DNA of 64,000 bases from Babesia bigemina (lineage: Eukaryota), in the NCBI RefSeq assembly GCF_000981445.1, contig NC_027216.1, positions 1,860,001 to 1,924,000 of the forward strand. Reading direction: 5' to 3'. The position numbers and the translations under genes are program-made. The notes under the pieces were generated by a model, which was given only the letters and a program-made list of their open reading frames with translations, was not told the DNA's origin and ran no database searches. Below, piece by piece: positions 1,489 to 38,717 of the stretch (position 1 is its first letter; each line of letters opens with the position of its first letter).

Positions 1489-2553
1489 TGGTCTTCAACG
1501 TGCGGCACCGTCATAAATATCGATATGCTTATTGGATATTTCGCCAACGACGCCGCTTAGAGCTGATCAACTGCAACATGTGGTGCTGGTGAAGTGTACG
1601 CTGCGTTAAACAACGGTCATTTGTGCTCAACGTGCACTTTACGCTTGGTAGCACGTAACAACAATCTTGTAATGTTTCTACTTTATCTGTATAGATGTAA
1701 GATGCTAGTTAAATCTATAGCGATGTAAATGTTGTATGCTGACTCACCGGAACGTAACAGCTGGGCGAAACTCTCACGGTCCAATCGTTCGTTAGCTGTC
1801 CCACGTTTGAGGGGTTCGATCACTCATCAAAAGATGCGAGATTAAAAGTTGCGAAATATGGACGGGATTTAAGACTACCACATCAAGTAGACACAGTCCA
1901 TACGCCACGGCATGTACAGAGCGCAAGCTATAGGAAGTATTATTACAGTGGTACTAACTACGTATCCCCAAAGGTCCACACAACTTCAGCAGTGAGGTGT
2001 AAGCCAATCACACGCATGTCTAACTATTACGACCTAAGAATGTGATGTGCAGCAGAAGCGGTTCGACGTCATGAAGGTGTACGATTTAGTAGACAACGAT
2101 AATGTGAGACATGTGGCCGACACGTTTCGGTCTTAACAATAGCAATTCGCCTTCATCCATCCAACTTCTGTTAAAACAGTGGCACGTTCGTGATAAAGGT
2201 AGTATATAATCAGTCTAGTTGCGAAGACATGGGTCGATGCCAAAATAGTGATTGGCCATTAACCAATAGGACCAATGTGATCCAGTAATAGATTGAGACA
2301 TACTATAGATAACACTTAGTTGATGAACACATTGCACGCTGTCTAAAGGAATTTAAGGTATAATTGGGAATAGATGCATAAACAATGTAAAGGAAATTGG
2401 CATAACCATATCATGCCTGCACTCTGCATACCATGGCTTTTCAAATGTTCATTTTGATTCGACACCCTATATGTAGTTCAATTATGATGCCATATTGACA
2501 CCGGATGTGACATAATTAGAGGCATTCTATGTGAACTGGGATAGGCTATGAGA

Positions 2554-2727
2554 TTATTGGAGTTTAGGCTTGGAGTCACGGAATCCATCACGTAGTCTCG
2601 CGAAAAATTCTCCAAGGCTTACGTTATAAACTTGACCCATGATGTAAATGACCAATACAGGGAGGGCTATTATGGCAATGACGCCAATAATGCCACCAAC
2701 ATAATGCTTTGCGTCATCCCAAGTCAT
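2554..2727 (-). CDS. 57-aa single-TM microprotein, cassette copy 1 (MTWDDAKHYVGGIIGVIAIIALPVLVIYIMGQVYNVSLGEFFARLRDGFRDSKPKLQ)
   Basis: Translated by hand, below the ORF-track cutoff. The paralog at 27274-27447 has the same length, start and stop, with a ~20-aa hydrophobic segment and an identical RDGFRDSKPKLQ end. Confidence 0.75.
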   Translation of the reverse strand: MTWDDAKHYVGGIIGVIAIIALPVLVIYIMGQVYNVSLGEFFARLRDGFRDSKPKLQ

Positions 2728-4343
2728 CTTCTACAAAACACAATTGCAAATCACCCCTGCACAGCAACGCAAAACGTACCTCCGACCTCGAACACCCTCA
2801 GCCAACTGACAAGGTACAGTGCCCATATCGACACATCTGGCATGCCATCCGCATTGTGCTGGGGTTAGGGTTATTCCCGATCTCACAACCTTTGCATGGT
2901 GTGAACCCACAGAATTTCTGAGTGCATATATGAGGCATATGGACATCATAACTCAGATAACAAGGGGTGAAGCCGTCCAAAATACAAGATTGTTTTTTCA
3001 ATATCACCGACAAGTGCTTGCGTGCCACACTCTAACTGCTCCACCGCATGTCTTGGCGATCTGCCATTGACTATGACGATGTTAGTTGCCACATGTAATC
3101 GCATCCTGAAATGGCGCTTCTCTGTGGCGTGCCCTACCACCAAAGGCGGGGAGTCTTAGAATTATGCGTTACCCTACCGTTTACCTAAGCAGTAACACGT
3201 CATCCATTCAGATGAAAAATAGGTTACTATATCACCTAATATTGCACTCGTCACCTACTGCCGTGTATAGCCAAGCACCTGATTGGCACGGTGCGGAGCT
3301 ACTACTTAATCGCTCCATGATACCTACAACTCAGGCGCCGTATTGCAATGTAAATGCTCAGATGATTAACTCATATGTTGCTCGTATGTTATGTATTTGA
3401 TGCTGTTCTATATTCGTAGTGCCGTTGTAGGATCTGCCTTGTAATAAATTTGGAACCTAAAAGAAATCGTAGCAGCCGGGCGACTTTCTCATCCTCATAT
3501 ACGAGCGCTAAAACAGTCATGGGTGCAATGCCTTATACGAGGCAAAGTTATATGAAATCGGTAAATGGCAAATGATACTGCGTTGCGATATTGAAATTGT
3601 ATCTGAGCTGCTTAAGGATGCAAGTTATCCTTGTAAGGGAACGCTCAAAGGCGATCAATGTCAATATCGCAGTAAACCCTTTCACCAGTGATATAATTCG
3701 TGGATGAAACAGAAATCAGGGGTGGCTCGTCAAATACACCTCATAGTTTATAAACCAACATCAGTACTCCTTCAGTAAACACAACCCAACCAAAAGAGGA
3801 TGGTTAGGAGCACAAATATTTGGACTGGTAACGCACCAGCTGCGAATCACGTCATTACAGCCACTACCATAATCACGAGAGACAATTCATGTCTTGTACT
3901 GTTTCTAACCTTGTGCCAGCGCAACGCACACGAGTCGACATTACATTTATTACTGTCGTCACTTTCAGCATGATTAGTCACCAGAGGTCTTAAAGCAACT
4001 GTTTAAATTGTAAGACAGATATAAACTACACAGTTAAGAACAAACAGCGTTCGTCTAGTATTCAGCAGCTTTTATGGCGATTTGAAGCATTACACAATTC
4101 GTTCTGCGGCAATGGCAAGCATCAACATGAGTTTCGTGAAATCATTTGAGGTTTTAATCAGGTACCTTGCATAAATCATTTTCACTTGGTTGCAGTTGCG
4201 ATCATTAACCGATGTCCGGTGTCTATCCAGAACCGCTGCCATTACACCGTGAGTGTAAACCGAGCGTATCATTAAACGTATGTGATAATACAAGTAGATT
4301 ACAATGCGATGTTATTGATAGGACTGCCAACGCAATGAATTAG

Positions 4344-4802
4344 TTATGAAAGGTTTTTGCTTCCAAGTCCGGAGTAAGTCGTAGTGTACCCGGTCCACTC
4401 GTAGACCGCTTTGGGTATGATGTAAGCCGATGACTTTGTCTTATAGAGGTAGACAGCAAAGCCGAATAATATTGCGAATAAAATAACGCCGAATAAACAA
4501 CAAAGCATTGGCGTCCTGCTCTTATTACAACCTTCACATGGGCAAACCCAATTATTACAACCTTTATACCCAAAAGGTGAGCGTTTAATTTGTTTGGAGC
4601 GACATATCAAGCACCATGAGGAGTTCTTGCATTCGTCACAACACCAGGGGCAGCATTGACAAAATAGCCTATTACCTGTATCTAAACACGTACAAGGACA
4701 ACATTTACATTGTTGTTCTTTTTTGCAACTATTCCCCACGCAACACTGATTCTTTGTAGTCTTACAGTTTCCTTGTGTACATCCACACGTCTCTCCAGAC
4801 AT
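4344..4802 (-). CDS. Small Cys-rich single-TM protein, copy 1 (152 aa from the ATG at 4802)
   Basis: About 25 Cys in the N-terminal ~100 aa, TM LFGVILFAILFGFAVYLY, tail nearly identical to the paralog at 28202-28600. The ATG at 4802 aligns with the paralog ATG (GAGGGGAAAATG vs GAGGGAAAGATG). An alternative ATG lies at 4817. Confidence 0.85.
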   Translation of the reverse strand: MSGETCGCTQGNCKTTKNQCCVGNSCKKEQQCKCCPCTCLDTGNRLFCQCCPWCCDECKNSSWCLICRSKQIKRSPFGYKGCNNWVCPCEGCNKSRTPMLCCLFGVILFAILFGFAVYLYKTKSSAYIIPKAVYEWTGYTTTYSGLGSKNLS

Positions 4803-7320
4803 TTTCCCTCGATGCATGTATCAACCAAGCTTCTCAACAAAGGAAAACAAAATCAGATACCTGTGCCACCTATTATGGAATATCCTTGTTACAGCATCAC
4901 ATATCTAGACAGCAGTGCGTTTTGATATAGTATTTGCAGCGTGTCATTGTCCAAAACCTTGAGTGCTCCCCAATAGCCTGTGTTGAATACGCATGGCACA
5001 GTGGGTAAGTGTGGAACACCACAGACTTCATTGCATCTATTGTTTATGAAAGTTAGTTATATCGCACAATATTTAATATGGTAATATGTTCTGTTGTAAT
5101 CCGTAACCCTAGTCTCCATTACTCTACTTCAACTGAGTCACGCGAGGTGAGGAATGTAGACACTGCGTAATGTAGATGCTGAATAATACGATCATGCTGC
5201 TATACGCTATTAATAGAGCATGAATTCACAGAGTGATCAGTGAGACTAATTAGTAGTCCGTTGGAACATGCGTTGATGACCATCTCATAAGTCTGGGATT
5301 AAACTTCACGCTGAAGGCTGACACTTTTCGTGTCTTTCCAAATATTAGTCTTCCAACAACAATATGGTCTGCAACCAATATCACAAGATGTGTATTTTAC
5401 GCACCTAGTCTCTTTCTTGGTGTTATTTTGTGTATTGATGACCTATCCTGGGGGTTATTTCGCTCATGATGGCCAACTGGTTTCCTCTGTTGGCACCATA
5501 GAAAATCACATAATCGATTGAACTATACGACGCTTACGTGCATTATCAGAGCAAGCATTTTCGGGTTCAAAAATATTTTTAAGATTCTTCTCTTAGGCCG
5601 CGTCATCAATCAACTCGCTCACCTTTATGATACAATTGATCAGTTGCCATATATCATCACTGATAGTACGCACAGTGTTATGCTCTTGTCACATAGCATC
5701 GGCCTTGTCAGTGGTTGTCAGTTTTCCCACCTCGATCTATAATGACAAGCAACCGTTGATGGAATAAGATTATGATAGTTTATGAAAAGTGTTGGCTGTC
5801 AAGTGATATGTCATTGTGATCTGGCTTGACAGTTTTACGGATAGAATCGTACTATTGTCTTATCTAACATTGGGTTGGGGAACAGTACTAGCTCCTTGTT
5901 AACAGTGCACCAGTTAAACCCCAGAGAGCTCTTGGACAATTCGGATTCTACTTATATTTAAGTTTCAGTGATCACCACACAGCAGACGTATACAAATATG
6001 TTCCTGTAGTCACATGGATTGTTCGCCAATTCTGCCACCGTGTTAGAAACACATCGACTATGGTGGGTGGTTTGCCTGGGGGAAAGCTATTTTTAGTATT
6101 AATTACTGCCAATTAGAACTCCCGAATATTATTATCACTTGGGTATATGTAATTCGTGTGTGAAACTGTTGAAAAATGATTTGTCGCATTAAATGCCCCC
6201 CCCAAACAGCCGGACTGAAAAGACACCTTAGAGGTGTGACCCACTCAGCGATGAGACATTCCATAATATGAGGCGCATTATCATAGGGCTTAAGATACAA
6301 TATGATTGTGATGTTGTCTCAAGTGAGAAATCGCATTACTCCTCTTCATCTGATCAGATTAACTAAACCCTGCTTCAAGCACTGTTGCCGCTGCTGTTGT
6401 GTGGAAACACGAATTGAGACGTTATAAATGACTCTAGCACTTCTCCAGACAGCAGATACCAATACATTACGAATGCCACCAAATGGCAAATAGCAGCGAT
6501 TTTACAATAGCGTAGTAACAATGTTCCGCATAAGACTGCAGCCACTGGTCAAACAATTTAAATGTTAAATAGTGGAGCATAATGCTTTAAAAATCACTGC
6601 ACTATGTCAACATTCTGTCAGGCATTTGGTCTTCATTGCTGTGCTAGTCTGTGCTGATCGTAGCAGATAGCTGATTGGTAACAAGGCATAAGCAGCTGCA
6701 TAACAAATGCGTCTATATTTTAATCGACCTTGCAAAGGCCGATATGAGCATTAATTTGAAACTGTGGTGTATCTTACGACACTGATGACATTGATGGCGA
6801 AAGAACGCAACCTCCGCTTTCCGTAACTGTTGACGTCAAGGTGATGTTATACATTGTATCTTCGAGGAGAGGTTTGGGATCTCTCGGCTGAATGACAGCA
6901 GGTATATATGATTATCGCCCGAACCCATATGCTCATAACAGATGTAGCTAAGATGGTGAGTAGACAGTTCACCATAATTACTCATCACATCATGTTGCCC
7001 CGCGCCACTTACAGGAGTTGGCGAGGTACACCAACTTACGTTTCACATTTCAGTTCTAAAAAGGAATATAATTAAAGCGATTATATAGTGAAACGAATAA
7101 GATTCTGCGTACGAAGCATAAGGGAAATTGCAGTGGTCCCCCTTACCAATAGTGCTATGCATGTTATACACAGGTTCGTGAAAGCACCTCAGATTCTACA
7201 CAATTTTACACATGAAACACAAATTGATGCACATTGCCATGAATTGCTGATGCGGTGACTGAGGAATTGCACAGCCAACTGTTACCGCCTTCTGGGCACG
7301 TTGTTGAGCGCTTTACAGGG

Positions 7321-8079
7321 ATGGCAGAAATGGCGGCGGAGTTAGCGGATGGGAAAACAGCAGAGAATACATGCTTTGGATGTAACAACCGATGGAGCGT
7401 AAGCGCAGAATACTTCTGCTGTATACCCGGTTGTCCGGGGTGTAAAAAAATAAAGTGCTCCACAAAAAACAGATGTCATTGCAACGTTTGCGACTGCGGG
7501 TGCCAGAATGATGATGCGGTCAGAGAAGGTAAAAAGCGTTGTTACGAGAGCACATCTAACGGTTGCGCCAAATGCAAGGAGATATGCAACACCGAAAAAG
7601 CGGGAAAAAGATGTATATGCTTCCTTTGCAACTGTGGATGCAATGGCGTGAATTGTGGCTGCTGTACTTGGTGTGATTTTAACGACTGTTCTGGAGTATG
7701 CAACCGAGAGGACAAACACAGCGTAAAGTGTAAGGAAAACAAACAGAGCGGAAGCAAAGACTATGAATCGGGCAAGTATTACTGTGACGAGCACTTAGGT
7801 GGCGATTGCCTCGGCAAAAATTGCAACACAATCTACTACACCACCGGCACCTGCCGCGCGAAGTGCCAGTACTGCGGCACATTATGCGGCCAACATGTGT
7901 TTTTCCTACAGTGCACCATAGGTGGCCCCGTCATTGGAATCATACTAGTCAACATCGTCGTCTGGTTGATGTGGCGTGACAAGGCGCTGAAGGCAGTAGA
8001 TAAGATGCGCCGCTCATTCGCCAACCGCCCCGGACTATTCAAAACACGCTGGATGGTACGGGGATCCATGAAACATTGA
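7321..8079 (+). CDS. Large Cys-rich single-TM protein, copy 1 (252 aa from the first ATG)
   Basis: About 36 Cys, TM GPVIGIILVNIVVWLMW, basic tail. The paralog at 30818-31573 keeps the frame. The track ORF begins at a GTG (7255), which is unlikely in a eukaryote. Confidence 0.88.
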   Translation: MAEMAAELADGKTAENTCFGCNNRWSVSAEYFCCIPGCPGCKKIKCSTKNRCHCNVCDCGCQNDDAVREGKKRCYESTSNGCAKCKEICNTEKAGKRCICFLCNCGCNGVNCGCCTWCDFNDCSGVCNREDKHSVKCKENKQSGSKDYESGKYYCDEHLGGDCLGKNCNTIYYTTGTCRAKCQYCGTLCGQHVFFLQCTIGGPVIGIILVNIVVWLMWRDKALKAVDKMRRSFANRPGLFKTRWMVRGSMKH

Positions 8080-8466
8080 AACGTAAACAAACGCTACTCC
8101 GATTCACGTACAAGGATAATGTAGCTTCACGTAGTCAACGCTTTCAATAGAGCAGAAACTGCCGTATTAATGTAGTACATTTCATATGCTCATATTGATG
8201 TCCATCAAATATTGCTTGTCAGACAATTGCAAACCACAGTGCATATCGATATGGCATCGCATCTCACTCAGTAAATCAAAGTGCATCAACTACGACAAGG
8301 TATCCACTACACTCAAGCCAATAATCAAATCATCAACCACACCCAACACTCCACTCCAGACCAACCAAACAACACAAACCCCATGCACATCACCACATAC
8401 AACCGACCCACCACAGGAAACACAAAGAACTCAAAATTAGGCGGAAGCCAAGTCGCCGTGTCCGAC

Positions 8467-24680: not shown

Positions 24681-26301
24681 ATGGCGGAAGGGTCGTCAGG
24701 AAGTGATAATACTTCTGCACAATTGGATAGAAAACTTGAGTATGGACCGTTAGCAAAAGCACTCTACATATTGGTGTCTTTTTTTGAAGGCTACGACCAA
24801 CAAGTGTTGTCCATGTGTATGAGAACCTTTGAGTTGACATTGGGATTCTCACAGTCTCAGTTGTCTACGTTGGCAACGGTATCAACTATGTCCCGTATGG
24901 GTTGCTGCTTACTTTGGGGTTTACTGGCAGACCAGCATGATTCAAACCTTATACTTGGTGCTGGTCTTTTAGTGATGGGTATGGCTTCGATTTTCTTAAG
25001 TTCAGCGTCGCATTACAAAGTGGTAAGTTGCAATTGTTGCGGAATAGATACACTTGCAGATTGTGTTTTTGCGTTTCTTACACGGTTTTGGATTTGCCTG
25101 CGTTTACCCTGTACAACAAAAAATTGTTTCCGATTCGACAGAGTCGAAGGAAGCAGAAGATAAAAGGAAATCGGTAACAGAAAAAGGCACAAAGGGGGGG
25201 GCAGGATCACCGGGGACATCAGTAACACCTACATCTCCGGAAGCAGATACTGCAAAAACATCAAAGAAAAAGGAATCAAAGGAAGCTAGTACCATGTTCA
25301 CGGCTCTACAGGCTCTAAATTGCATTGGTCGTCTTTTATGCGCTGTGATAACTACGATAATCGCACGCAAAGTATTATTGGGTTATTATGGCTGGCGCAC
25401 TTCCTATGTAGTTTTAGGTTATGTATGGATATTGTTTGGTATAGGGATTCTATTTGGCTTGACACCTCTATGTCGAAACGAGGCTTATAAGTCCGACGAA
25501 AATTTTAAGGAGCTTTTAGAGGATGCGTTTTCAAACGCTTTTAGGAGGGCAACTACGTGGATATTGATATTGACGATATTCATCGCAGAAGCTCCAATGT
25601 CCGCGTTTAATTATATGACGATATACCTTCAATATTTAGGAGTATCTGACACAATGGCAGGCGTTGCAATTGCAGTTACATTGATTGGTGGCGCAGCGGG
25701 AAGTGGAGCTGGGGGGAAAATCATAGAGAAAATTGCGGATCTCGAAGACGGATTTGGTGAACTCGGTTGTGGAATCGCAGTGATGGTTGTCCGATTAGTG
25801 GTCTGTCTGTTGTTCTTCTTAGGGAAGCCACCGTGTGGAAAGTTGCTATGGTATCATTATGTAGAGTTGGCAACCCTTGGTGGAACATTAGTTACTGTTG
25901 GCGGAGTAGATAGGGCGCTTTTGAAGAGTTCGGTCGAAAATAAATCGCAGGCAACAGCGTCCGCGACAGTTAGAACCATATCTGGCATATCAAGTAGTAT
26001 AATTCTTTTCCAGGTTTGCGCATATTTGACCGAGAAGGTGTTCGGCTACGTACCATCTAGGGAGTCCTTTGAAACGATGGCAACAGATATTAAAGAGAGA
26101 AATGCTGAGGCTCTGAGGAAATCAATGATGTATATCATTTTGGCCGGCACATTGCTAAACGTTGTGTGCTATGTTGTGTTGTTTTTTACGTATAAAATGG
26201 ATAAGAAAAAAGTTGATGAGAACAATGCCAATCACAAAAAGAAAGTAGAAGAAAAACCAAAGCAGCTACAAGAAGGGTCGCAAAAATGTATGAAGAATTA
26301 A
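24681..26301 (+). CDS. Major facilitator superfamily transporter (~527 aa, 2 exons)
   Basis: Intron 25023-25059 (GTAAG..TTGCAG) joins two ORFs in frame. About 12 hydrophobic segments, motif-A-like WGLLADQHD, LRFLHGFG and YGWR. Confidence 0.92.
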
Positions 26302-27273
26302 GGAAATTATCGAATGAACGAGAACTTCGGCTTAGTAAACATGTGTGGTGTTCTGTTGAGATAATGAAGCATTTTGCGTATTAACTTATATATGCGACTT
26401 GTATGATACACGTATCAAGAGAACCGAATACTTAAATATCGGGCGATGCAATTGATGTTTAAAGTGTTGGCAGAAAATCTCTTTGTATGGTTTCAAAAGC
26501 AATGTTAATTCACTCGTAAGACATGTATTTCTAGTTTATTGAATGAAAAAATATGATTCCAGTACCACCACAAACATACGTTGCGTACCAATAGAAACAT
26601 TGAGATACAGATCCTAACAGAACTCCAATATGGGCAATTCCCATTAATGCGAATATTAGCGCAGAGAGGATTCTGTTTAAGAATGTCTCCACAAACGCCA
26701 ATGTGCGCGCAGATGCCCTCATCATGCAAGGTGCTACAGATCATCCATAACTAATGCTCAACACGAATAGGTGACAGCAATTGCTGAGTGCGATGCTGAC
26801 TAATCACAAGTATGTCGCGTTAACGAAATACGCTCTGGATGGCGCTGAGAAAGATCATATCGAGGCACTGATGAAGGACTTCCGCTTGCGCTTAATGTTT
26901 TATATACGTGGCGAGTTTAATGCTAAGATTTTATGGGTAGGAACAATTACCGGGTAAAACGCCTTTACAGCGGCTTGGAAGTTGACAGCGTTTCGTCACC
27001 TAAGCAACCACCAGATCCACATTTATACATGGCAGTGGCTAGTTAAAAAATTAAATCTGGCTATCCGAACCTGACGTAATTATTCTGGCATATAGTTTTC
27101 TGAATAACTTTTTAATTTACTTGTTGCCGTTCTGTTATATAACAGTATGATTACATCAGCGCTCCAGTTCTTTGCTACATAAACAAACAGGTTTTTCGCA
27201 CGCTAAGTCCCGAACAGCGTTAATATTACGCAGATATATGGAATAAACATGTACTGTGTGCGATCACGAGATA

Positions 27274-27447
27274 TTATTGGAGTTTAGGCTTGGAGTCACG
27301 GAATCCATCACGTATCTGGCTGAATATCTCGCCAAGACTTACGTTGTACTGTCTACCCATGATGTAGAGGACCAAGACAAGGAGGGCGGGAAATGCGATA
27401 AAGCCGCCAATAGCGGCGCCTGCGTAGCCTGCTTCTTCACCAGCCAT
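27274..27447 (-). CDS. 57-aa single-TM microprotein, copy 2 (MAGEEAGYAGAAIGGFIAFPALLVLVLYIMGRQYNVSLGEIFSQIRDGFRDSKPKLQ)
   Basis: Translated by hand. Paralog of 2554-2727 with the same length and the frame intact despite many substitutions. Confidence 0.75.
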   Translation of the reverse strand: MAGEEAGYAGAAIGGFIAFPALLVLVLYIMGRQYNVSLGEIFSQIRDGFRDSKPKLQ

Positions 27448-28201
27448 CTTCCCTTAACTTGTTTGCAACCAATCCTGCACAGCAACGAACTACGTACCTC
27501 CAACCTCGAACACCGTCGTCTAACTTACAAGATGTAGTACTTATATCAGCACACCTAGCATCCCAACTATCTTGTGCTGGGGTTAGGGTTATTCCCGATC
27601 TTGCAACCTTGGCATAGTGTGAACCCACGCATCTTACAAGTGCATATGTGAGGCATATTGACGTCATAATTAAGATAACACGGCATGAATATGTGCAATA
27701 TTCAAGAGTGTCCTTTCAATATGACTGGCCAGTGCTTGCGTGCCACGATCTGACTGCTCCACCGCATGCCTTGGCGAGCTGCCATTCACTATTACGATGT
27801 TAGTTGTCACATGTAATGGTATCCTTAAATGGCGTCTCTTTGTGGCTTACCCCAGCAATAAAGGCGGAGATGACTAGAATAATTCGTTACCCTACCGTCC
27901 ACCTAAAAAGTAACATGTCATCCAGTCAGATGATCCACAGGTCACTACATCACTTAAAATTACACTCATCACCTTCAGCATGATGAGTCATAAGCACGGG
28001 TCATAAAACAACTAACTCTTATAATTGTAAGAAAGATGTGAACTAGATTGCAGTTGCGATCATTAATCTCTGTCCGGTGTCTATCACAAACCGCTGCTAC
28101 TACACCGTGAATGTGAACTAAGCGCATCATTAAACGTGTGTGATGATACAAGTAGATTACGATATAACATGAACGCCTGGACACCGACCGGCATGTGTAA
28201 G

Positions 28202-28600
28202 TTACTGGAGATTCTTGCTTCCAAGTCCGGAGTACGTGGAAGTGTACCCGGTCCACTCGTATACCACTTTGGGTATCATGTAAGCCTTCGACTTTGTCTT
28301 GTAGATGATATAAGCGAAGGCGAGGAATATCGCAAAGATTAGAGCTCCGATGATGCACCAGAATACATTTGCAGATGCTGATTCACGTTTACTTATACAG
28401 CACCGGCACCCACATAGAGGTTCAGTGCATGGCTTATGCTTTGGTTCTAGACCACATTTGTGAGTTTTCGTGTCACATTTTTTCTTGCTCTTACACTGAC
28501 TCCCCTTACAAGAGTCACAACACCAGGGACAACAATTACACTGTTCATCAGTACACTGATTCCCTACGCAATTACACTTTTGCTCTGCTGCTGCTGCCAT
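28202..28600 (-). CDS. Small Cys-rich single-TM protein, copy 2 (132 aa)
   Basis: About 18 Cys, TM IIGALIFAIFLAFAYIIY, tail KTKSKAYMIPKVVYEWTGYTSTYSGLGSKNLQ matching copy 1. Confidence 0.85.
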   Translation of the reverse strand: MAAAAEQKCNCVGNQCTDEQCNCCPWCCDSCKGSQCKSKKKCDTKTHKCGLEPKHKPCTEPLCGCRCCISKRESASANVFWCIIGALIFAIFLAFAYIIYKTKSKAYMIPKVVYEWTGYTSTYSGLGSKNLQ

Positions 28601-30817
28601 CTTTCCCTCTTTTGACAATTAACCCAGAACAGCAACGAGAAACCTACTCAACGTTGCAGCAGTCGGGGTATGAACTGTTCACCCCTTCTATAAACTGTGG
28701 TTGTAATCGGTTATCGCATACATTAGAAATGCTATACGTTGCGACGCGTATTGGTAATTTGAATATCAACCCCTTGAATCAGCTATGCCAGGATACCACG
28801 CAGCTGCATGTGATGACGGGCATAAGAGGAACTAAGTCACATGCGTATCATATGTTCGAAGCATATATCCCACAGTCATATATTTGCTGTTTCATCCACT
28901 TGTAGCCGGCACTCAAAAATTCGGGTTGTCTACAACTCACATAAAACTGCGAATGCTGTTACGACTTGCCAATGCAGCATCCGAGGCTGACTCATAATAT
29001 TATGAAATTGTTCCACTTGAAACATCACTGATGCACAACACACTGGTCTGCGGTATAGCGTGTATCAATGGTCCCGTTGCGTGTATTACGAATCTGCCAA
29101 AACGACCTACTCCCCACCACCAAAACATTCACTATCCACGCTCACAATACTCTCTGAGTCCGATATGCCAGCCTGAATGTAATACTACTTTTGGGGTTTT
29201 ATGCAGTTCCAGTTGATCTGACAAGATTGTTATTACATGGTCTGAATGCCCAACCTGGTATGTACCAGGGGGCAACGCAGCTCCAATTACACCTTATACG
29301 GAGAGTTGCTCGTAAAATGCAATCTAATCACATTGGCACTCAGTATATCTTTTCATAACATGGGTTCTCGCGTATTACCTAATGCAGGCGTTTCTCTACA
29401 CCACGTGACTCGTTTTATACCTGCCATTCAAGCTGATAGCTGATCGAAGTGTCTCAATAAAATAATTATGAAGTTCCTTTTTTCGCTCTGTGAAAACGTT
29501 CCACAACTTAATGGCAACCCGTGATGCTATAAACATCATAAATGTTACTATTGTAACTACGATGGCCGTTGCTGGGGCTCTGCTGTATCATCTTAATATG
29601 GGCTAACCATCAGGCATTTGATGGCAACGTTGTTAGCAGCAGTAACGTAAATGCTATATGTGACAAGCATTTCGCATAAGTCTCTCATTAACATTAAATG
29701 CCCCAATCAGCCGGACTGAAAAGACACCTTAGAGGTGTGACCTCACCAGTGGAACATTCCATAATATGAGGCACGTTATCGTAGCTGTTAAGATATTATA
29801 CAGCTGTGCTATAGTCTGAACTGAGAAATCGCATTAGTTCTTTCCATCCGATCCGTTTCACTGAACCCTGCTTCAAGCACTGCTGCCGCTCTTGTGGTTG
29901 GGAAATGTTAAAAATAATAATCAACGTTGAAAGCAACGGATGTTATCACATTATGAATGTATCATAATGCAAAATAGTGAAGTTTCTGATAAGGCGTGGT
30001 AAACATCCACTTACGAGAATCGCACCCCGATTTGGAGAATCTACCTCAGAAGTTTGAATTCAAACACTTGGAGCATTTCCTGAGACAAAGGTATGCGTGC
30101 TTGGTCGATGATTATTTATCACTTTATAATGCTTTTCCCCACGCCATATGTGGTGATAGCAAGGCATAAAATAAGTTGAAGCGAGGCGGATTGATTTTTT
30201 TGTATAAGTGAAAGATTGGACCCCAACTCTTCGAATGAAAATAGCATTCATATAGCACTGTTCAGTATGACACTACACTGATGACATTGATGGCGAAAGA
30301 ACGCAACCTCCGCTTTCCGTAACTGTTGACGTCAAGGTGATGTTATACATTGTATCTTCGAGGAGAGGTTTGGGATCTCTCGGCTGAATGACAGCAGGTA
30401 TATATGATTATCGCTGGAATTCACATGATCATAACAGATGTAGCTAAGACAGTGAGTAGACAGTTCACCATAATTACTCATCACATCATGTTGCCCCGCG
30501 CCACTTACTGGAGTTGGCGAGGTACACCAGCATACGTTTCACATTTCAGTTCTAATACGAATTATAGCGTAAGTAAATATTATGTGAAATGGGTAACATT
30601 TTGCTTATTTGCTGTAACGGATATTTCATTGGTCCCTTCTTAACCGTTGCGCTCTGCATGTTGAACACCGCTTGCTTTAAACACTGTATATTCTACACAA
30701 TTTTACACATTGTGCAACAAGACAAACATATCGCCATGAATTGCTGATGCGGTGACTGAGGAATTGCACAGCCAACTGTTACCGCCTTCCGAGTACGTTG
30801 TTGAGCTCTTTACAGAA

Positions 30818-31573
30818 ATGGCTGTAATGACGGCGGAGTTAGCGGATGTGAAAACGGCGAATAAAACATGTTGTGGATGTAACAAACGATGGAGTGTAAG
30901 CGCTGAACACTTCTGCTGTATACCCGGTTGTCCGGGGTGTAAAATAATGTGCTCCACAAAAGGTAGATGTCATTGTAACGTTTGCGACTGCGGGTGCCAG
31001 AAAGATAATGATGTCAGAGAAGGCAAAACGCGTTGTTACCAGAGCACATCTAACGTTTGCCCCAAATGCAAGACGAAATGCAAAGATGTTCAAAATGGTG
31101 AAAGATGTATATGCTTCCTGTGCAACTGTGGATGCAATGGCGTGAATTGTGGCTGCTGTACTTGGTGTGCTTTTAACAACTGTACTGGAGTATGCGACCG
31201 AGAAGACAAACACAGCGAAAAATGTAAAGAAAACAAAGATAGCAAAAGCAAGGAGTATGAATCGGGCAAGTATTACTGTGACAAGCACTTAGATGGCAAA
31301 TGTATCGGCGGAATTTGCGACACAATCTACTACACCACCGGCACCTGCCGTGCGAAGTGCCAATACTGCGGTACATTATGCGGCCAACACGTGTTTTTCC
31401 TACAGTGCACCATAGGAGGCCCCATCATTGGAATCATACTAGTCAACATCGTAGTATGGTTGATGTGGCGTGACAAGGCGCTGAAGGCGGTAGATAAGAT
31501 GCGCCGCTCATTCGCCAATCGCCCCGGACTATTCAAAACACGCTGGATGGTACGGGGTTCCTTGAAAAATTGA
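30818..31573 (+). CDS. Large Cys-rich single-TM protein, copy 2 (251 aa)
   Basis: Paralog of 7321-8079 with the Cys scaffold conserved and the TM and tail almost identical. Confidence 0.88.
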   Translation: MAVMTAELADVKTANKTCCGCNKRWSVSAEHFCCIPGCPGCKIMCSTKGRCHCNVCDCGCQKDNDVREGKTRCYQSTSNVCPKCKTKCKDVQNGERCICFLCNCGCNGVNCGCCTWCAFNNCTGVCDREDKHSEKCKENKDSKSKEYESGKYYCDKHLDGKCIGGICDTIYYTTGTCRAKCQYCGTLCGQHVFFLQCTIGGPIIGIILVNIVVWLMWRDKALKAVDKMRRSFANRPGLFKTRWMVRGSLKN

Positions 31574-32040
31574 AACGTGGACAAACGCTACTCCGATTCA
31601 CGTACAAGGATAATGTAGCTTCACGTACAACACGTATTCAATGCAGCAGAAACTGCCGTATTAATGTAGTACATTTCATATGCTCATATTGATGTCCATC
31701 AAACATTGCTTGTCAGACATTTGAAAACCACAGTGCATATCGATATGGCATCACAACCACTCAAAAAATTAAAGTGCACCAACTACTATCAATAATCATC
31801 TACATTAAGCCAATAATCACGTCAATAACGATCAAGAATACAGACGCATCAAAATACGACCACATCAACTACGACAAAGGATGCACCACACTCAAGCCAA
31901 TACTCACATCACCGCCCACACCCATCACTCCAGACCAACCAAACAAGACAAACACCATGCACATCACCACCTACAACCGACCCAGCACAGGAAACACAAA
32001 GAACTCAAAATTAGGCGGACGCCAAGTCGCCGTGTCCGAC

Positions 32041-32237
32041 CTAACGCTGCGCGTAGTCACGCAGCATCAGACTCTTGCCGAGCAAGTGAACTGCTCGCAC
32101 CGACATCATCTCGCTCCACGAGAACATGTAGCGGCGTCTCAGAGCCAGCAGCTGCGCCAGCACGAAACCGTGTGCGCCGAATAGCTCCTTCTCACGTGAT
32201 TCCAGAACTATCGTTTCACGCTGGCAGATCTGGGCCA
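32041..32237 (-). pseudogene. Duplicated 3' fragment of the kinase gene (last ~65 codons)
   Basis: Matches 8467-8663 with 6 differences counted by eye in 197 bp. It contains no kinase domain. Confidence 0.9.
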
Positions 32238-32445
32238 TCGCCACTCACTACTCCTGCATTTTGAGGCGTGAAATTATCATGTACTGCGTCAAAATCACAT
32301 CTGAACAAGTTTAACACGTAAGAATAACCATCACAATAAATCTGTGGTAACCGATAAGAGTTTGTATCTTTTCGACATTATTGCTTGTGTTTCACACTTT
32401 TGACCATTGTGAGTTGCTATTTGTTTGATGAAGTCTATTACGAAA

Positions 32446-36621: not shown

Positions 36622-38466
36622 TCAGAAGGTGACGGACTTCTTCTTCTTGGCGTTGATGCCAGTTGTCTCGCCGGAGTACCCCGGCGTCTCCGACTTGGTC
36701 CCGCTGACCATCGAGCTGTGAACCGTCTTCTTCTTCTGGTACTTCATGCGGTTGGAAACGCGCGCGTTACCGGCGGTCTTCTTGCGCTGACGCGTCAGAC
36801 CCTTGTTGCGCAGGATATCCGCTCCAGCACCTAGGACACGTTTGTCTAAGCAAAAATACAACATACCACGCTTGCCCTCAACCTCCTCACGTTCGAACTT
36901 GCGCTTCTTGCCCTCTGATTTGCTTTCCTTCAGCGACTCCTTGAGTTCGGTTTGGTGCCGCTTCATCTTTGCGAATTCGTCGTCGAATTCCGACTTCCGG
37001 GGTGCAGGTGCCTCAGTCATTGGCGCAGAGGCCGCTTTAGGCTTGCTCGACCGTTTGGCAGCGCTGAATTCCAGTGATTATATGGCGCATGAGAACTAAC
37101 TGTGGTTTGAAGTACGCATCTGACGCACGCAGCTTCTCGGTCTCCAGGATGTCCTGGCGCATGATCTGAGCGGCGGTGTTCATGCCGACGAGCACGTCGC
37201 GCTTCGACTGCCCAGAAGTCAACGCTTCCGCGGCGAAGCTGCTGAGCTCGTCCAACATGATTCCGCCCTGCTTGTTGCGTTGGTGTTTCTGGAACTCGCG
37301 AAGTTCCTTCTTGGCCATCTTGTTCATCGGCAGACGCCGCATATGTTCCATTTCGTAGCGTTCGCGCTCCAGCAGAGCTTTGACCATCTTGGCGGCCTTG
37401 GCGCTGCTGTAGCGATCGGTGGGCTCATCTTCGTCCTCTTCCTGCATCTCACGCGCCTCGTCCAGCATCCGCCTGCCGCTAACCACCTTCTCCTTACGCT
37501 GCAGTTTCTTCTGGTGTTTGGCCTGCAAGATGTCAAAATACGCATGTTACACTTACGTAAGCGTCGGTTTCGGCGAGTGGAAGCTGCGAAGGTGGCTTGT
37601 ACACGCCACTCTGCTCACGCTCGTCGAACTCCATGAGGTCCAGGCGCGGTCTGAGGGCCTTCCCTTCAGCTGCGGTTGGTGTTAAAGCAAGTGAACGTGA
37701 CAACGAACCCTTCGCCATATTGTCGTCGAGCAGCTTGTTGATTTCAAACTGCAGCCGTGATTCGATAGGTCGTGCCTTGTCCAGCATGATGCGAATCTCG
37801 AGCAGCCTGTTGATCACCGGGTGGTTTTCCACTGGCACGCCGTGCGTCTTGAGCAGCAGGTAGTAGCTCAGGTACGTGACGTACATCAGCATGAGTTCGT
37901 TTCTCACGTCCAAATACTCCATGCCATCCTTCGTGCACTTCTTCGGCACTCCCATGTCGTTGACTATCTTCAGCACCTGCTCATTAGTCAGTTCGGCCTT
38001 CTCCTTGAACTCCTTGAGAAGCGCCATGAACTCTGGGTGCTCATCCTCCACGTACTGCCTCTTATCCGCGTCACTGAGCTGGTGGAAAGCCGGAGGCAGT
38101 TCCACCAGTGAGCTCTGGTTGCGGAGGGAAGCCGAAAGGTCTTCGAGGATAGAGTCCAGTGCCGTGGTCTCGGTGTCAACCTCATCTTCCTCCTCGACCA
38201 TGTCCTCCAGTTCGGCGTCTTCGTCGTCGACGCCATCGTACAGATCCCTGGCTATCCGTTCGGCCTCGGCTATGCGATCGTTGATGTCCTCGTCGTCGGA
38301 CGACTCCTCGGAGCCCTCATCGTAGTAAGCTCCCAGCTTCTTACCCCAGGAGGCCCCCTTCTTAGTTCCGGCATCCTCCTCTTCCTCATCGCTGCCGTCG
38401 TCAAGATCCTCATCCTCTCCGTCGTCATCCTCATCATCTGCATCCTCGTCGTCATCCTCTCCGTCG

Positions 38467-38503
<37 letters not shown>

Positions 38504-38717
38504 CTTCATCGCCATCAAGTTCTTCTTCCGAATCCTCGGAAGGCAAGTCCCGTGGCAGCGCCATGGCTTCGAACTCGGCGGCGTCGCTGTCCTCATCTGC
38601 CACAGATATGACCAAAGCGACCTATAACGTACCTTCGGAAACCGCCGCCAGCGGTATGAAAGCCTCGTTCCCCTTGAACCTTTTAGTGGCTGATTTTTTG
38701 GCCGTTTTGCGCGCCAT
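36622..38717 (-). CDS. SAS10: Sas10/Utp3 SSU processome component
   Basis: Acidic N-terminus, Sas10/Utp3/C1D domain (YLSYYLLLKTHGVPVENHPVINRLLEIR..RPIE..L..EI.KLL) and C-terminal NARVSNRMKYQKK..YSGETTGI. Several short introns. Confidence 0.9.
38467..38501. repeat. (TCA)11 trinucleotide repeat encoding poly-Asp
   Basis: Read directly. It lies in the acidic region of Sas10. Confidence 0.9.

What the first reader, a model, noticed from the sequence alone, without database searches (positions are those of the whole stretch)
27271..32237. Second cassette copy is a mosaic of very different divergence levels
Seen: the left block (27271-27974 vs 2551-3256) has many substitutions and the small Cys-rich N-termini barely align. 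The spacers 3257-4185 and ~4870-6180 have no visible counterpart. Yet 30275-30414 is identical to 6779-6918, and the right end is ~97% identical. Inference: this is not one simple duplication event. An old paralogous pair patched by segmental gene conversion, possibly from further copies elsewhere, fits better; this is the mechanism known for Babesia ves variation.
Basis: partly seen in the sequence, partly recalled or inferred. Interest (0 to 1): 0.7.

Follow-up and report, generated by a model that had tools for sequence, protein, structure and literature searches.

The report
Gene-conversion mosaic in Babesia membrane-gene islands
Two islands of small membrane-protein genes, 23.5 kb apart in the cattle parasite Babesia bigemina, are old copies of each other at one end and nearly identical at the other, most likely because one has repeatedly been overwritten from the other; the process is well known, but these are not the parasite's known variant-antigen (ves) genes.

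Summary
The mosaic is real. The window is Babesia bigemina DNA with two direct copies of an island of three small one-pass membrane genes, called A, B and C here. Synonymous divergence is about 0.8-0.9 for A and the tail of B, 0.22 for C, and at most 0.09 for a 196-bp tail of the neighbouring single-copy kinase that copy 2 has captured. One duplication cannot give this. A 140-bp identical run lies beside a 176-bp patch at 36% divergence; both are extreme under permutation. Best reading: an old paralogous pair, later homogenised on its right side by local interlocus conversion, locus 1 to locus 2 for the kinase tail. Constraint on non-coding elements explains part of the finer patchiness. No reads were available to exclude assembly error in the finest tracts. 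A known process acting on undescribed gene families.

The parts
27274..27447 (-). Gene A copy 2: 57-aa one-pass membrane micro-protein ORF; member of a family whose chromosome III copies lie beside ves-type genes
   Evidence: ORF; hydropathy; family; neighbours
27461..27974 (-). Conserved non-coding region upstream of A2 (old tier: 107 of 514 sites differ, no indels, no codon periodicity)
27959..28045 (.). Remnant of the A-B spacer; two pieces present in copy 1 are missing here
28046..28201 (-). Conserved 3' flank of B2 (old tier, 37 of 156 differ)
28202..28600 (-). Gene B copy 2: 132-aa Cys-rich one-pass membrane protein (18 Cys); tail dS 0.78 against B1; ectodomain barely alignable
28601..29691 (.). 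Spacer with no detectable similarity to copy 1
   Evidence: z 1.2
29692..29904 (.). Conserved non-coding element between the head-to-head genes B and C (old tier, 38 of 213 differ)
29905..30274 (.). Near-saturated spacer, length kept (371 vs 373 bp to the start of the identical tract)
30275..30554 (+). High-identity non-coding tract upstream of C2 (11 of 280 differ); its first 140 bp (30275-30414) are identical to 6779-6918
30555..30733 (+). Divergent patch between two high-identity tracts (64 of 178 differ, one gap)
30818..31573 (+). Gene C copy 2 (first exon of annotated BBBOND_0108490): 251-aa Cys-rich one-pass membrane protein (37 Cys); dS 0.22 and dN 0.094 against C1
31777..31862 (.). 86-bp segment found only in copy 2; a diverged tandem copy of the sequence that follows it
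31863..32040 (-). Copy of the DNA just downstream of the kinase stop codon (9 of 61 and 7 of 117 differ)
32041..32237 (-). Captured last 65 codons of the single-copy kinase gene (6 of 196 differ: 4 synonymous, 2 replacement); similarity ends abruptly at 32237 and the junction makes an in-frame ATG at 32238
2554..2727 (-). Gene A copy 1, 57 aa; a long branch in its family
2743..3256 (-). Conserved non-coding region upstream of A1
4344..4802 (-). Gene B copy 1, 152 aa, 25 Cys; exact sequence not in the protein collection
6187..6406 (.). Conserved non-coding element, copy 1
6779..7058 (+). High-identity non-coding tract, copy 1
7321..8079 (+). Gene C copy 1, 252 aa from the first ATG (249 aa as held in the collection), 36 Cys
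8467..12288 (-). Intact protein-kinase gene (BBBOND_0108400), source of the captured tail; expressed in blood stages and kinetes
24682..26301 (+). MFS transporter gene of the expanded B. bigemina / B. ovata family, at the left edge of island 2

Best explanation
The two islands are paralogous copies of a three-gene membrane-protein cassette whose left part is deeply diverged and whose right part has most likely been overwritten more than once by non-allelic gene conversion between these two loci. Step 1 (shown: collinear A-B-element-C order, kept spacing, dS 0.8-0.9, saturated spacers): an old duplication of the whole cassette. Step 2 (shown: C is uniformly at dS about 0.2 and C1/C2 are sisters on a long stem; inferred: conversion): C and its flanks were homogenised later, leaving 7060-7235 / 30555-30733 behind. 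Step 3 (shown: a 140-bp identical run and a kinase tail with 2 replacement changes; inferred: most recent tracts): short patches were copied again. The kinase tail can only have gone from locus 1 to locus 2, either by a tract that ran past the end of homology or by an old breakpoint kept young by conversion. A crossover between these direct repeats would delete the kinase and five more expressed genes in a haploid parasite, so only non-crossover products would survive (inference). Purifying selection on non-coding elements adds to the patchiness and likely supplies the identity from which conversion starts.
For: dS tiers: A 0.88-0.93, B tail 0.78, C 0.22 (pS 0.16-0.24 in five successive blocks), kinase tail 0.09; A+B tail vs C P 2e-6. 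Non-coding DNA falls in the same two tiers, each homogeneous: 182 of 883 on the left (P 0.38) and 42 of 684 on the right (P 0.16). The distance from the old-tier element to the C start codon is 915 vs 914 bp across a saturated spacer, so C sat in register before homogenisation. C1+C2 clade 100/100, stem 1.13, tips 0.086 and 0.10; closest other relative 41%. On 1,241 non-coding and third-codon sites of the right block, 0 of 20,000 permutations reach the divergent patch, and the empty 100-site window has P 0.0001. A functionless kinase tail as old as C's divergence should carry about 15 replacement changes and carries 2 (P 4e-5); third positions C 38 of 252 vs kinase 3 of 66, P 0.023. The kinase forms a module with one B. 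ovata orthologue only. The genes between the islands are in the expressed table.
Against: Only two DNA copies could be compared, so no outgroup or strain test of conversion (GENECONV, RDP) was possible; no whole genome was held. The ratio of non-coding to synonymous divergence is similar in both tiers (about 0.2-0.4, my arithmetic), so the 4% element upstream of C needs no separate event; thinning the A-upstream mismatch pattern to the young tier still gives a 140-bp run with P 0.003-0.046. Synonymous sites of C and of the kinase tail do not differ significantly (P 0.12). A2 is nearer a chromosome III paralogue than A1, which the local model explains only by faster change in A1.
Confidence: 0.62

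Rival explanations
1. The cassette was duplicated once, fairly recently (dS about 0.2), and the A-B part of one island was then replaced from distant family copies at ves-type islands elsewhere.
For: A2 matches BBBOND_0308880 at 40 of 43 C-terminal residues, and 6 of 7 chromosome III paralogues match it better than A1 does (33-40 vs 32; the seventh 31). That paralogue lies next to a C-family-module gene and two accessions from ves1a-module genes, so A plus C neighbourhoods exist elsewhere.
Against: The AU test does not reject A1+A2 (p 0.209) and A1 is a long branch against all members. B found no relative outside the window among 29 candidates of 72-266 aa (unannotated copies would be missed). 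A donor would need the whole A-spacer-B-element order and the 914-bp spacing to C.
Confidence: 0.15
2. Two events only: one old duplication and one later overwrite of about 1.9 kb (6779-8663). The finer patches come from selection: a conserved promoter or UTR element, a free spacer, and a constrained kinase tail.
For: The change-point search leaves 7236-8662 as one segment at 9%. Four young non-coding segments are homogeneous (P 0.16). Syn sites of C vs kinase tail P 0.12.
Against: The 176-bp patch (36%) exceeds C's synonymous divergence (19%; P 0.0008) yet has one gap only. The 140-bp run has P 0.005 even within its own 280-bp element. Nothing shows that the kinase tail has a function in copy 2.
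Confidence: 0.12
3. The islands belong to a ves-like antigenic-variation system in which an expressed locus is patched from silent donors.
For: The 140-bp run is within the range of B. bovis conversion tracts (mean 109 +/- 39 bp; PMC7485966 passages). B and C are head-to-head like a ves1 pair. All 7 A paralogues sit within two accessions of ves or ves1a-module genes.
Against: No ves gene or VESA domain in the islands. The most identical tracts are non-coding or kinase DNA, not ectodomain. C's ectodomain has dN/dS 0.50 and even dS. C's other relatives are at most 41% identical. The five annotated island genes and all 8 paralogues looked up are missing from the expressed table.
Confidence: 0.06
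4. The high-identity tracts are assembly or polishing artefacts.
For: The reference was built from 8x capillary reads and corrected with short reads (PMC4066756 methods section); short-read polishing can overwrite a few sites in near-identical repeats (own knowledge). No reads were checked.
Against: Differences are spread through the tracts (127 in 1,418; 11 in 280). The only long identical run, 140 bp, is far shorter than a capillary read (own knowledge). The sequenced parasite was cloned by limiting dilution. Both ORFs are intact under purifying selection. This could touch only the 140-bp run, not the dS tiers.
Confidence: 0.05

Closest known systems
Segmental gene conversion of Babesia bovis ves1 genes at the locus of active transcription (PMC7485966, passages read; PMC4066756, sections read)
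   Same: Patchwork identity between paralogues; a tract of similar length (140 bp vs mean 109 bp); a head-to-head gene pair; same genus; gene A's paralogues lie at ves-type loci.
   Different: The genes are not ves1 or ves2. The partner is the neighbouring island, not a repertoire of donors. The best-kept tracts are non-coding and kinase DNA. No expression site was seen. The tiers span long evolutionary times, not an infection.
Ordinary interlocus gene conversion between nearby paralogues, e.g. Arabidopsis halleri HMA4 (bioRxiv 10.1101/2025.10.29.685298, abstract and outline only)
   Same: Mosaic divergence within nearby direct copies, because the effective conversion rate varies along the sequence.
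   Different: Here the unit is a three-gene island in a haploid parasite, with conserved genes between the copies, and the tract includes the tail of a single-copy housekeeping gene.
B. bovis smorf and mtm, B. bigemina ves2 and expanded mfs: accessory families that gather at ves loci (PMC4066756, PMC7561165 passages)
   Same: Small, lineage-restricted, multicopy genes in AT-richer islands; an expanded-family MFS gene abuts island 2.
   Different: A, B and C have a transmembrane helix and no N-terminal hydrophobic signal (B, C); ves2 has a signal peptide and no membrane anchor. ves2 and smorf were reported to show little mosaicism. No smorf or ves sequence came up in any search with A, B or C.
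'Metallothionein like protein, putative' / hypothetical Cys-rich membrane proteins of B. bigemina and B. ovata (database labels)
   Same: Gene C is a member: 12 of 12 profile hits are from these two species; shared Cys framework and C-terminal helix.
   Different: The label is automatic. C1 and C2 have their own shorter cytoplasmic tail. No paper holding Babesia + metallothionein + ovata was found.

Membership tests
ves1 (VESA1) variant antigen genes | Large protein with the conserved VESA C-terminal domain | tested here: not met
   Island ORFs other than the MFS gene are at most 278 aa; no VESA Pfam family among 14 window proteins or 14 C-family members; VESA column blank for CDR94541 and CDR94551.
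ves2 short ves-like genes | Homology to the 5' end of ves1b, signal peptide, no membrane anchor | tested here: not met
   All six proteins have a hydrophobic helix (KD19 2.2-2.8); B and C have no hydrophobic N-terminus; no ves protein among the homologues.
ves-type antigenic variation by segmental gene conversion | Short mosaic tracts of about 100 bp between paralogues | tested here: met
   140-bp identical run and 176-bp divergent patch, both beyond permutation; one pair only.
ves-type antigenic variation by segmental gene conversion | Many donor copies similar enough to supply the tracts | tested here: not met
   For C the next relative is 41% identical; the kinase is single-copy. Met only for gene A. 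Protein-level search; unannotated DNA copies not searched.
ves-type antigenic variation by segmental gene conversion | An actively transcribed recipient locus in blood stages | tested here: inconclusive
   BBBOND_0108390 and 0108460-0108490 are absent from the >=1 CPM table while 0108380, 0108400-0108450 and 0108500 are present; another strain was mapped on this reference, so poor mapping of diverged genes is possible.
ves-type antigenic variation by segmental gene conversion | Product exposed on the infected red cell and changing during clonal infection | not testable with these tools
   Needs localisation and serial sampling.
Interlocus gene conversion between paralogues | Synonymous and non-coding divergence vary along the alignment beyond chance | tested here: met
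Interlocus gene conversion between paralogues | Tracts group by species or strain rather than by locus against an outgroup | tested here: inconclusive
   C1 and C2 are sisters to the exclusion of all other members, which a recent duplication also gives; no strain or orthologous DNA could be obtained.
Interlocus gene conversion between paralogues | Non-reciprocal transfer with a donor left intact | tested here: met
   The kinase is whole at locus 1 and its last 196 bp are copied at locus 2; shown for this tract only.
B. bigemina / B. ovata Cys-rich 'metallothionein-like' membrane family (gene C) | Profile match over the Cys framework and the membrane helix | tested here: met
   C1 and C2 were in the query profile, and the single-sequence search already gave E 8e-39 and 4e-18 to two members.

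The most novel reading that the evidence does not exclude
Babesia bigemina carries an undescribed set of ves-satellite genes: a 57-aa membrane micro-protein family that sits beside ves loci, and head-to-head Cys-rich membrane genes. They form a second conversion-driven surface repertoire, silent in blood stages and kinetes and used in another tick stage or one locus at a time. The same recombination machinery reaches past the island edge and captures housekeeping sequence, here making a new 65-codon ORF from the kinase tail.
Probability: 0.12. Interest if true: 0.7.

Novelty: new member of a known kind. Interest (0 to 1): 0.33.

Why it matters
The process is ordinary. The modest gain is threefold. 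It shows conversion-type mosaicism in Babesia outside ves1, in genes of a kind that was reported to recombine little (ves2, smorf; PMC4066756). The captured tail of a single-copy gene fixes the direction of one transfer and gives an internal clock, which ves mosaics do not. It brings out three small membrane-gene families with no description in the papers searched, one of which tracks ves loci (7 of 7 paralogues) and is missing from the gene models at both window copies as far as exact look-up shows. Strain assemblies already made for B. bigemina make the question testable at once.

Tried and rejected
No whole genome was held for the window, so no genome-wide DNA search for further copies. A scan of metagenome contigs with the A alignment gave 73 pattern matches and no relative. 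Rfam on 1500-33000 gave one chance-level match outside the islands (E 0.82): the 140-bp tract is no known RNA family. Hidden coding in the 514-bp region upstream of A: rejected, stops in all six frames and no period-3 signal (P 0.62). Positive selection as the cause of C's pattern: dN/dS 0.50 in the ectodomain, 0.12 in the helix and tail, highest block 0.74. Mosaic of C from other family members: the 27 differences informative against two paralogues interleave (11 like C1, 14 like C2, 2 tied). A decayed family tail behind the C stop codon, seen by eye: rejected, 30 and 107 of 396 control frames score as high. Retro-copy of the C transcript: no poly-A at the right junction. Cross-similarity between different island modules: two hits in copy 1 did not repeat in copy 2. 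AlphaFold2 of C: mean pLDDT 43.9, only the membrane helix confident, so no fold search was run. ESM Atlas: no usable feature hit for C1 or a paralogue, best TM 0.27 by query. Pfam: nothing significant for A, B or C. The proteome table of PMC4066756 and the single-cell supplements of PMC9531838 hold none of the ids searched; both are partial lists, so this says little. Look-ups of earlier findings by place and by sequence were empty.
Full report
Setting. A self-comparison of the window finds one repeated unit: 2550-8663 against 27270-32237, same orientation, in six HSPs of 73.6-93.2%. Both copies lie in AT-richer stretches (GC about 0.38-0.47 against 0.50-0.64 in most of the rest). The organism is Babesia bigemina: the 399-aa protein BBBOND_0108490 matches 30818-31549 and 31717-32181 letter for letter. 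Island 1 lies between an RCC1 gene and a protein kinase. Island 2 follows an MFS gene of the expanded family (38-member module).

Anatomy. Each island holds three intact ORFs with one hydrophobic helix. A is 57 aa on the minus strand, without cysteine. B is 152 or 132 aa on the minus strand, with 25 or 18 Cys. C is 252 or 251 aa on the plus strand, with 36 or 37 Cys. B and C are head-to-head. Copy 2 also carries the DNA downstream of the kinase stop and the last 196 bp of the kinase coding sequence; similarity stops abruptly at 8663/32237. The names A, B and C are mine.

Observation. Confirmed as given, with two corrections: a piece of the A-B spacer survives in copy 2 (3949-4028 vs 27959-28045), and the poorly aligning Cys-rich ends belong to B. 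Divergence by segment, as mismatches over aligned sites: A upstream 107/514; B 3' flank 37/156; middle element 38/213; spacer 6407-6778 146/344 (z 3.4); spacer 4803-6186 unalignable (z 1.2); C distal upstream 11/280, with the 140-bp identical run; C proximal upstream 64/178; next 84 bp 6/84; C coding 82/756; C 3' flank 18/203; kinase downstream 9/61 and 7/117; kinase tail 6/196. I chose these segments by eye. A penalised change-point search on the right part gave 6187-6429 (0.18), 6430-6779 (0.43), 6780-7059 (0.04), 7060-7235 (0.36) and 7236-8662 (0.09).

Not one event. Nei-Gojobori dS is 0.93 for A (0.88 without the first ten codons), 0.78 for the helix and tail of B, 0.22 for C and 0.09 for the kinase tail. 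A plus B-tail against C gives P 2e-6. The left-hand values rest on few sites: pS intervals are 0.36-0.73 and 0.30-0.68, against 0.13-0.26 for C. Within C, pS runs 0.24, 0.21, 0.20, 0.16, 0.16 over five blocks, so C itself is not a mosaic; its apparent 5' to 3' rise in identity is protein constraint (dN/dS 0.50 in the ectodomain, 0.12 in helix and tail). Non-coding DNA shows the same two tiers, 182/883 and 42/684, each homogeneous.

Why conversion rather than a fresh insertion of C. The old-tier middle element lies 915 and 914 bp from the C start codon, across a spacer that is nearly saturated but has kept its length. So C stood in this place before the right side was homogenised. In a tree of 14 family members C1 and C2 are sisters (100/100) on a stem of 1.13 with tips of 0.086 and 0.10. 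The nearest other member found is 41% identical. The partner of the young tracts is therefore the other island, as far as annotated proteins show.

Finer patches. On 1,241 non-coding and third-position sites of the right block, none of 20,000 permutations reaches the 64 mismatches of the proximal patch, and the mismatch-free window has P 0.0001 at 100 sites and 0.008 at 178. The proximal patch is more diverged than C's synonymous sites (P 0.0008), so it looks like old-tier DNA that conversion skipped. The 140-bp run is weaker evidence than it looks: conserved non-coding elements here diverge at roughly a quarter to a third of dS in both tiers (my arithmetic), and a constrained element thinned to the young tier gives such a run with P 0.003-0.046. 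The kinase tail is the best clock. The kinase is single-copy (module of two with its B. ovata orthologue) and whole at locus 1, so the transfer went from locus 1 to locus 2. If the fragment were functionless and as old as C's divergence, about 15 replacement changes would be expected; there are 2 (P 4e-5). It is younger than C's divergence, or constrained. Synonymous sites alone do not separate the two (P 0.12; third positions P 0.023).

Further copies. A has seven annotated paralogues on chromosome III among 20 candidates. Over the last 43 residues A2 matches BBBOND_0308880 at 40 and A1 at 32; A1 matches no member above 32. The tree is unresolved and the AU test does not reject A1+A2 (p 0.209). 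B found only its own copy 2 among 29 candidates of 72-266 aa; longer and shorter proteins were not searched. C belongs to a family of at least 10 B. bigemina and 5 B. ovata proteins; 12 of 12 profile hits among 1.84 billion representatives come from these two species. In Table S2 of PMC5660447, 7 of 7 A paralogues lie within two accession numbers of a ves-type gene: four beside genes labelled ves1a, ves1b or ves2, three beside unlabelled members of the ves1a module. Accession order is a proxy for position, I saw only the first five rows per search term, and I ran no control. The accession next to BBBOND_0308880 falls in a module with two C-family genes. The window's islands are thus ves-type accessory islands that hold no ves gene.

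Not ves. No island ORF has the size or the domain of VESA1; the helix and the lack of a signal exclude ves2. In the RNA-seq table of PMC9806345 (3,721 genes at 1 CPM or more; another strain mapped to this reference) the flanking genes 0108380, 0108400-0108450 and 0108500 are present and 0108390 and 0108460-0108490 are not; 6 of 6 A paralogues and 2 of 2 C paralogues looked up are also absent. That C1 is 0108390 is inferred from gene order. Short or diverged genes may fail to map, so this is not proof of silence. Four B. ovata C-family genes have RPKM 9-30, against 371 for the kinase orthologue. B. bovis conversion tracts average 109 +/- 39 bp and need little flanking homology (PMC7485966), so the machinery could be shared; that is inference. 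Jackson et al. report strong mosaicism for ves1 and little for ves2 and smorf.

Assembly. The reference was assembled from 8x capillary reads and polished with short reads, from a parasite cloned by limiting dilution. Differences are spread through the young tracts and the longest identical run is 140 bp, so collapse cannot produce the tiers. Polishing could have removed a few differences from that run. No reads could be laid.

Mechanism and verdict. Old cassette duplication, later local conversion over C and its flanks, and short recent tracts, one of them carrying kinase DNA from locus 1 to locus 2. Crossover between the direct repeats would delete six expressed genes (0108400-0108450) in a haploid organism, which would leave conversion as the surviving outcome (inference). 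Confidence 0.62. The process is known; the genes are undescribed in the papers searched. Novelty: new member of a known kind. Interest 0.33.

Papers seen. PMC4066756: abstract, methods section 8, results parts 1-2 of 4, passages, search of 2 of 3 supplements. PMC7485966, PMC10463595, PMC7561165, PMC7999288: passages. PMC5660447: passages and searched supplements. PMC9806345: passages and searched supplements. PMC9531838: supplement search only. bioRxiv 10.1101/2025.10.29.685298: abstract and outline. Figures (such as the synteny maps of PMC4066756) could not be seen and may bear on whether the islands sit at rearrangement breakpoints. Subscription papers are not in the library.

Noticed in passing
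window 32238-32041 (minus): The right junction turns the kinase codon GTG into ATG, giving an intact 65-codon ORF for the kinase's C-terminal tail in copy 2. It has 4 synonymous and 2 replacement changes; the exact protein is not in the collection.
   Followed up: partly
window 2743-3256 and 27461-27974: 514 bp of non-coding DNA upstream of gene A align with no indel at 21% divergence and no codon signal; both copies keep a GGGGTTAGGGTT run and a possible 23-nt intron. The annotated first exon of paralogue BBBOND_0310030 matches part of it, so the element seems to travel with the family. Unexplained length constraint.
   Followed up: partly
proteins P0006-P0012 (chromosome III): All seven paralogues of the 57-aa gene A lie within two accession numbers of ves1a, ves1b, ves2 or ves1a-module genes: a ves-tracking micro-protein family that I found in no paper searched.
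   Followed up: partly
window 30818-32184: The public model BBBOND_0108490 (399 aa) splices C2 at 31549 to 31717 and reads 155 more residues, ending antisense over the kinase fragment; the C1 model stops at the shared stop codon. Probably an annotation artefact.
   Followed up: partly
window 31777-31862: An 86-bp segment unique to copy 2 is a diverged tandem copy of 8284-8337 / 31863-31949 (0 of 500 shuffles reach the score). It is either old copy-2 DNA left beside an out-of-register new tract, or an ancestral repeat lost from copy 1.
   Followed up: partly
window 3257-3955 and 4030-4187: Two pieces absent from copy 2. The first is bounded in copy 1 by the short repeat CGTCAC(C/T)T, as expected of a microhomology deletion.
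   Followed up: partly
window 27239-27259 and 32269-32289: An imperfect 21-nt direct repeat (81%) flanks the homologous block of island 2 on both sides, 11 and 31 bp outside it; one of 25 short families in 9.6 kb, so possibly chance.
   Followed up: no
window 4862-4884 and 6255-6277: A 23-nt inverted repeat (83%) links the region just upstream of B1 to the conserved middle element; no such pair was listed upstream of B2.
   Followed up: no
window 24682-26301: The MFS gene beside island 2 is absent from the blood/kinete expression table, while its best B. ovata match has RPKM 566.
   Followed up: no
window 38409-38516 and 57061-57112: Short low-complexity matches between two distant coding regions; simple repeats.
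   Followed up: no
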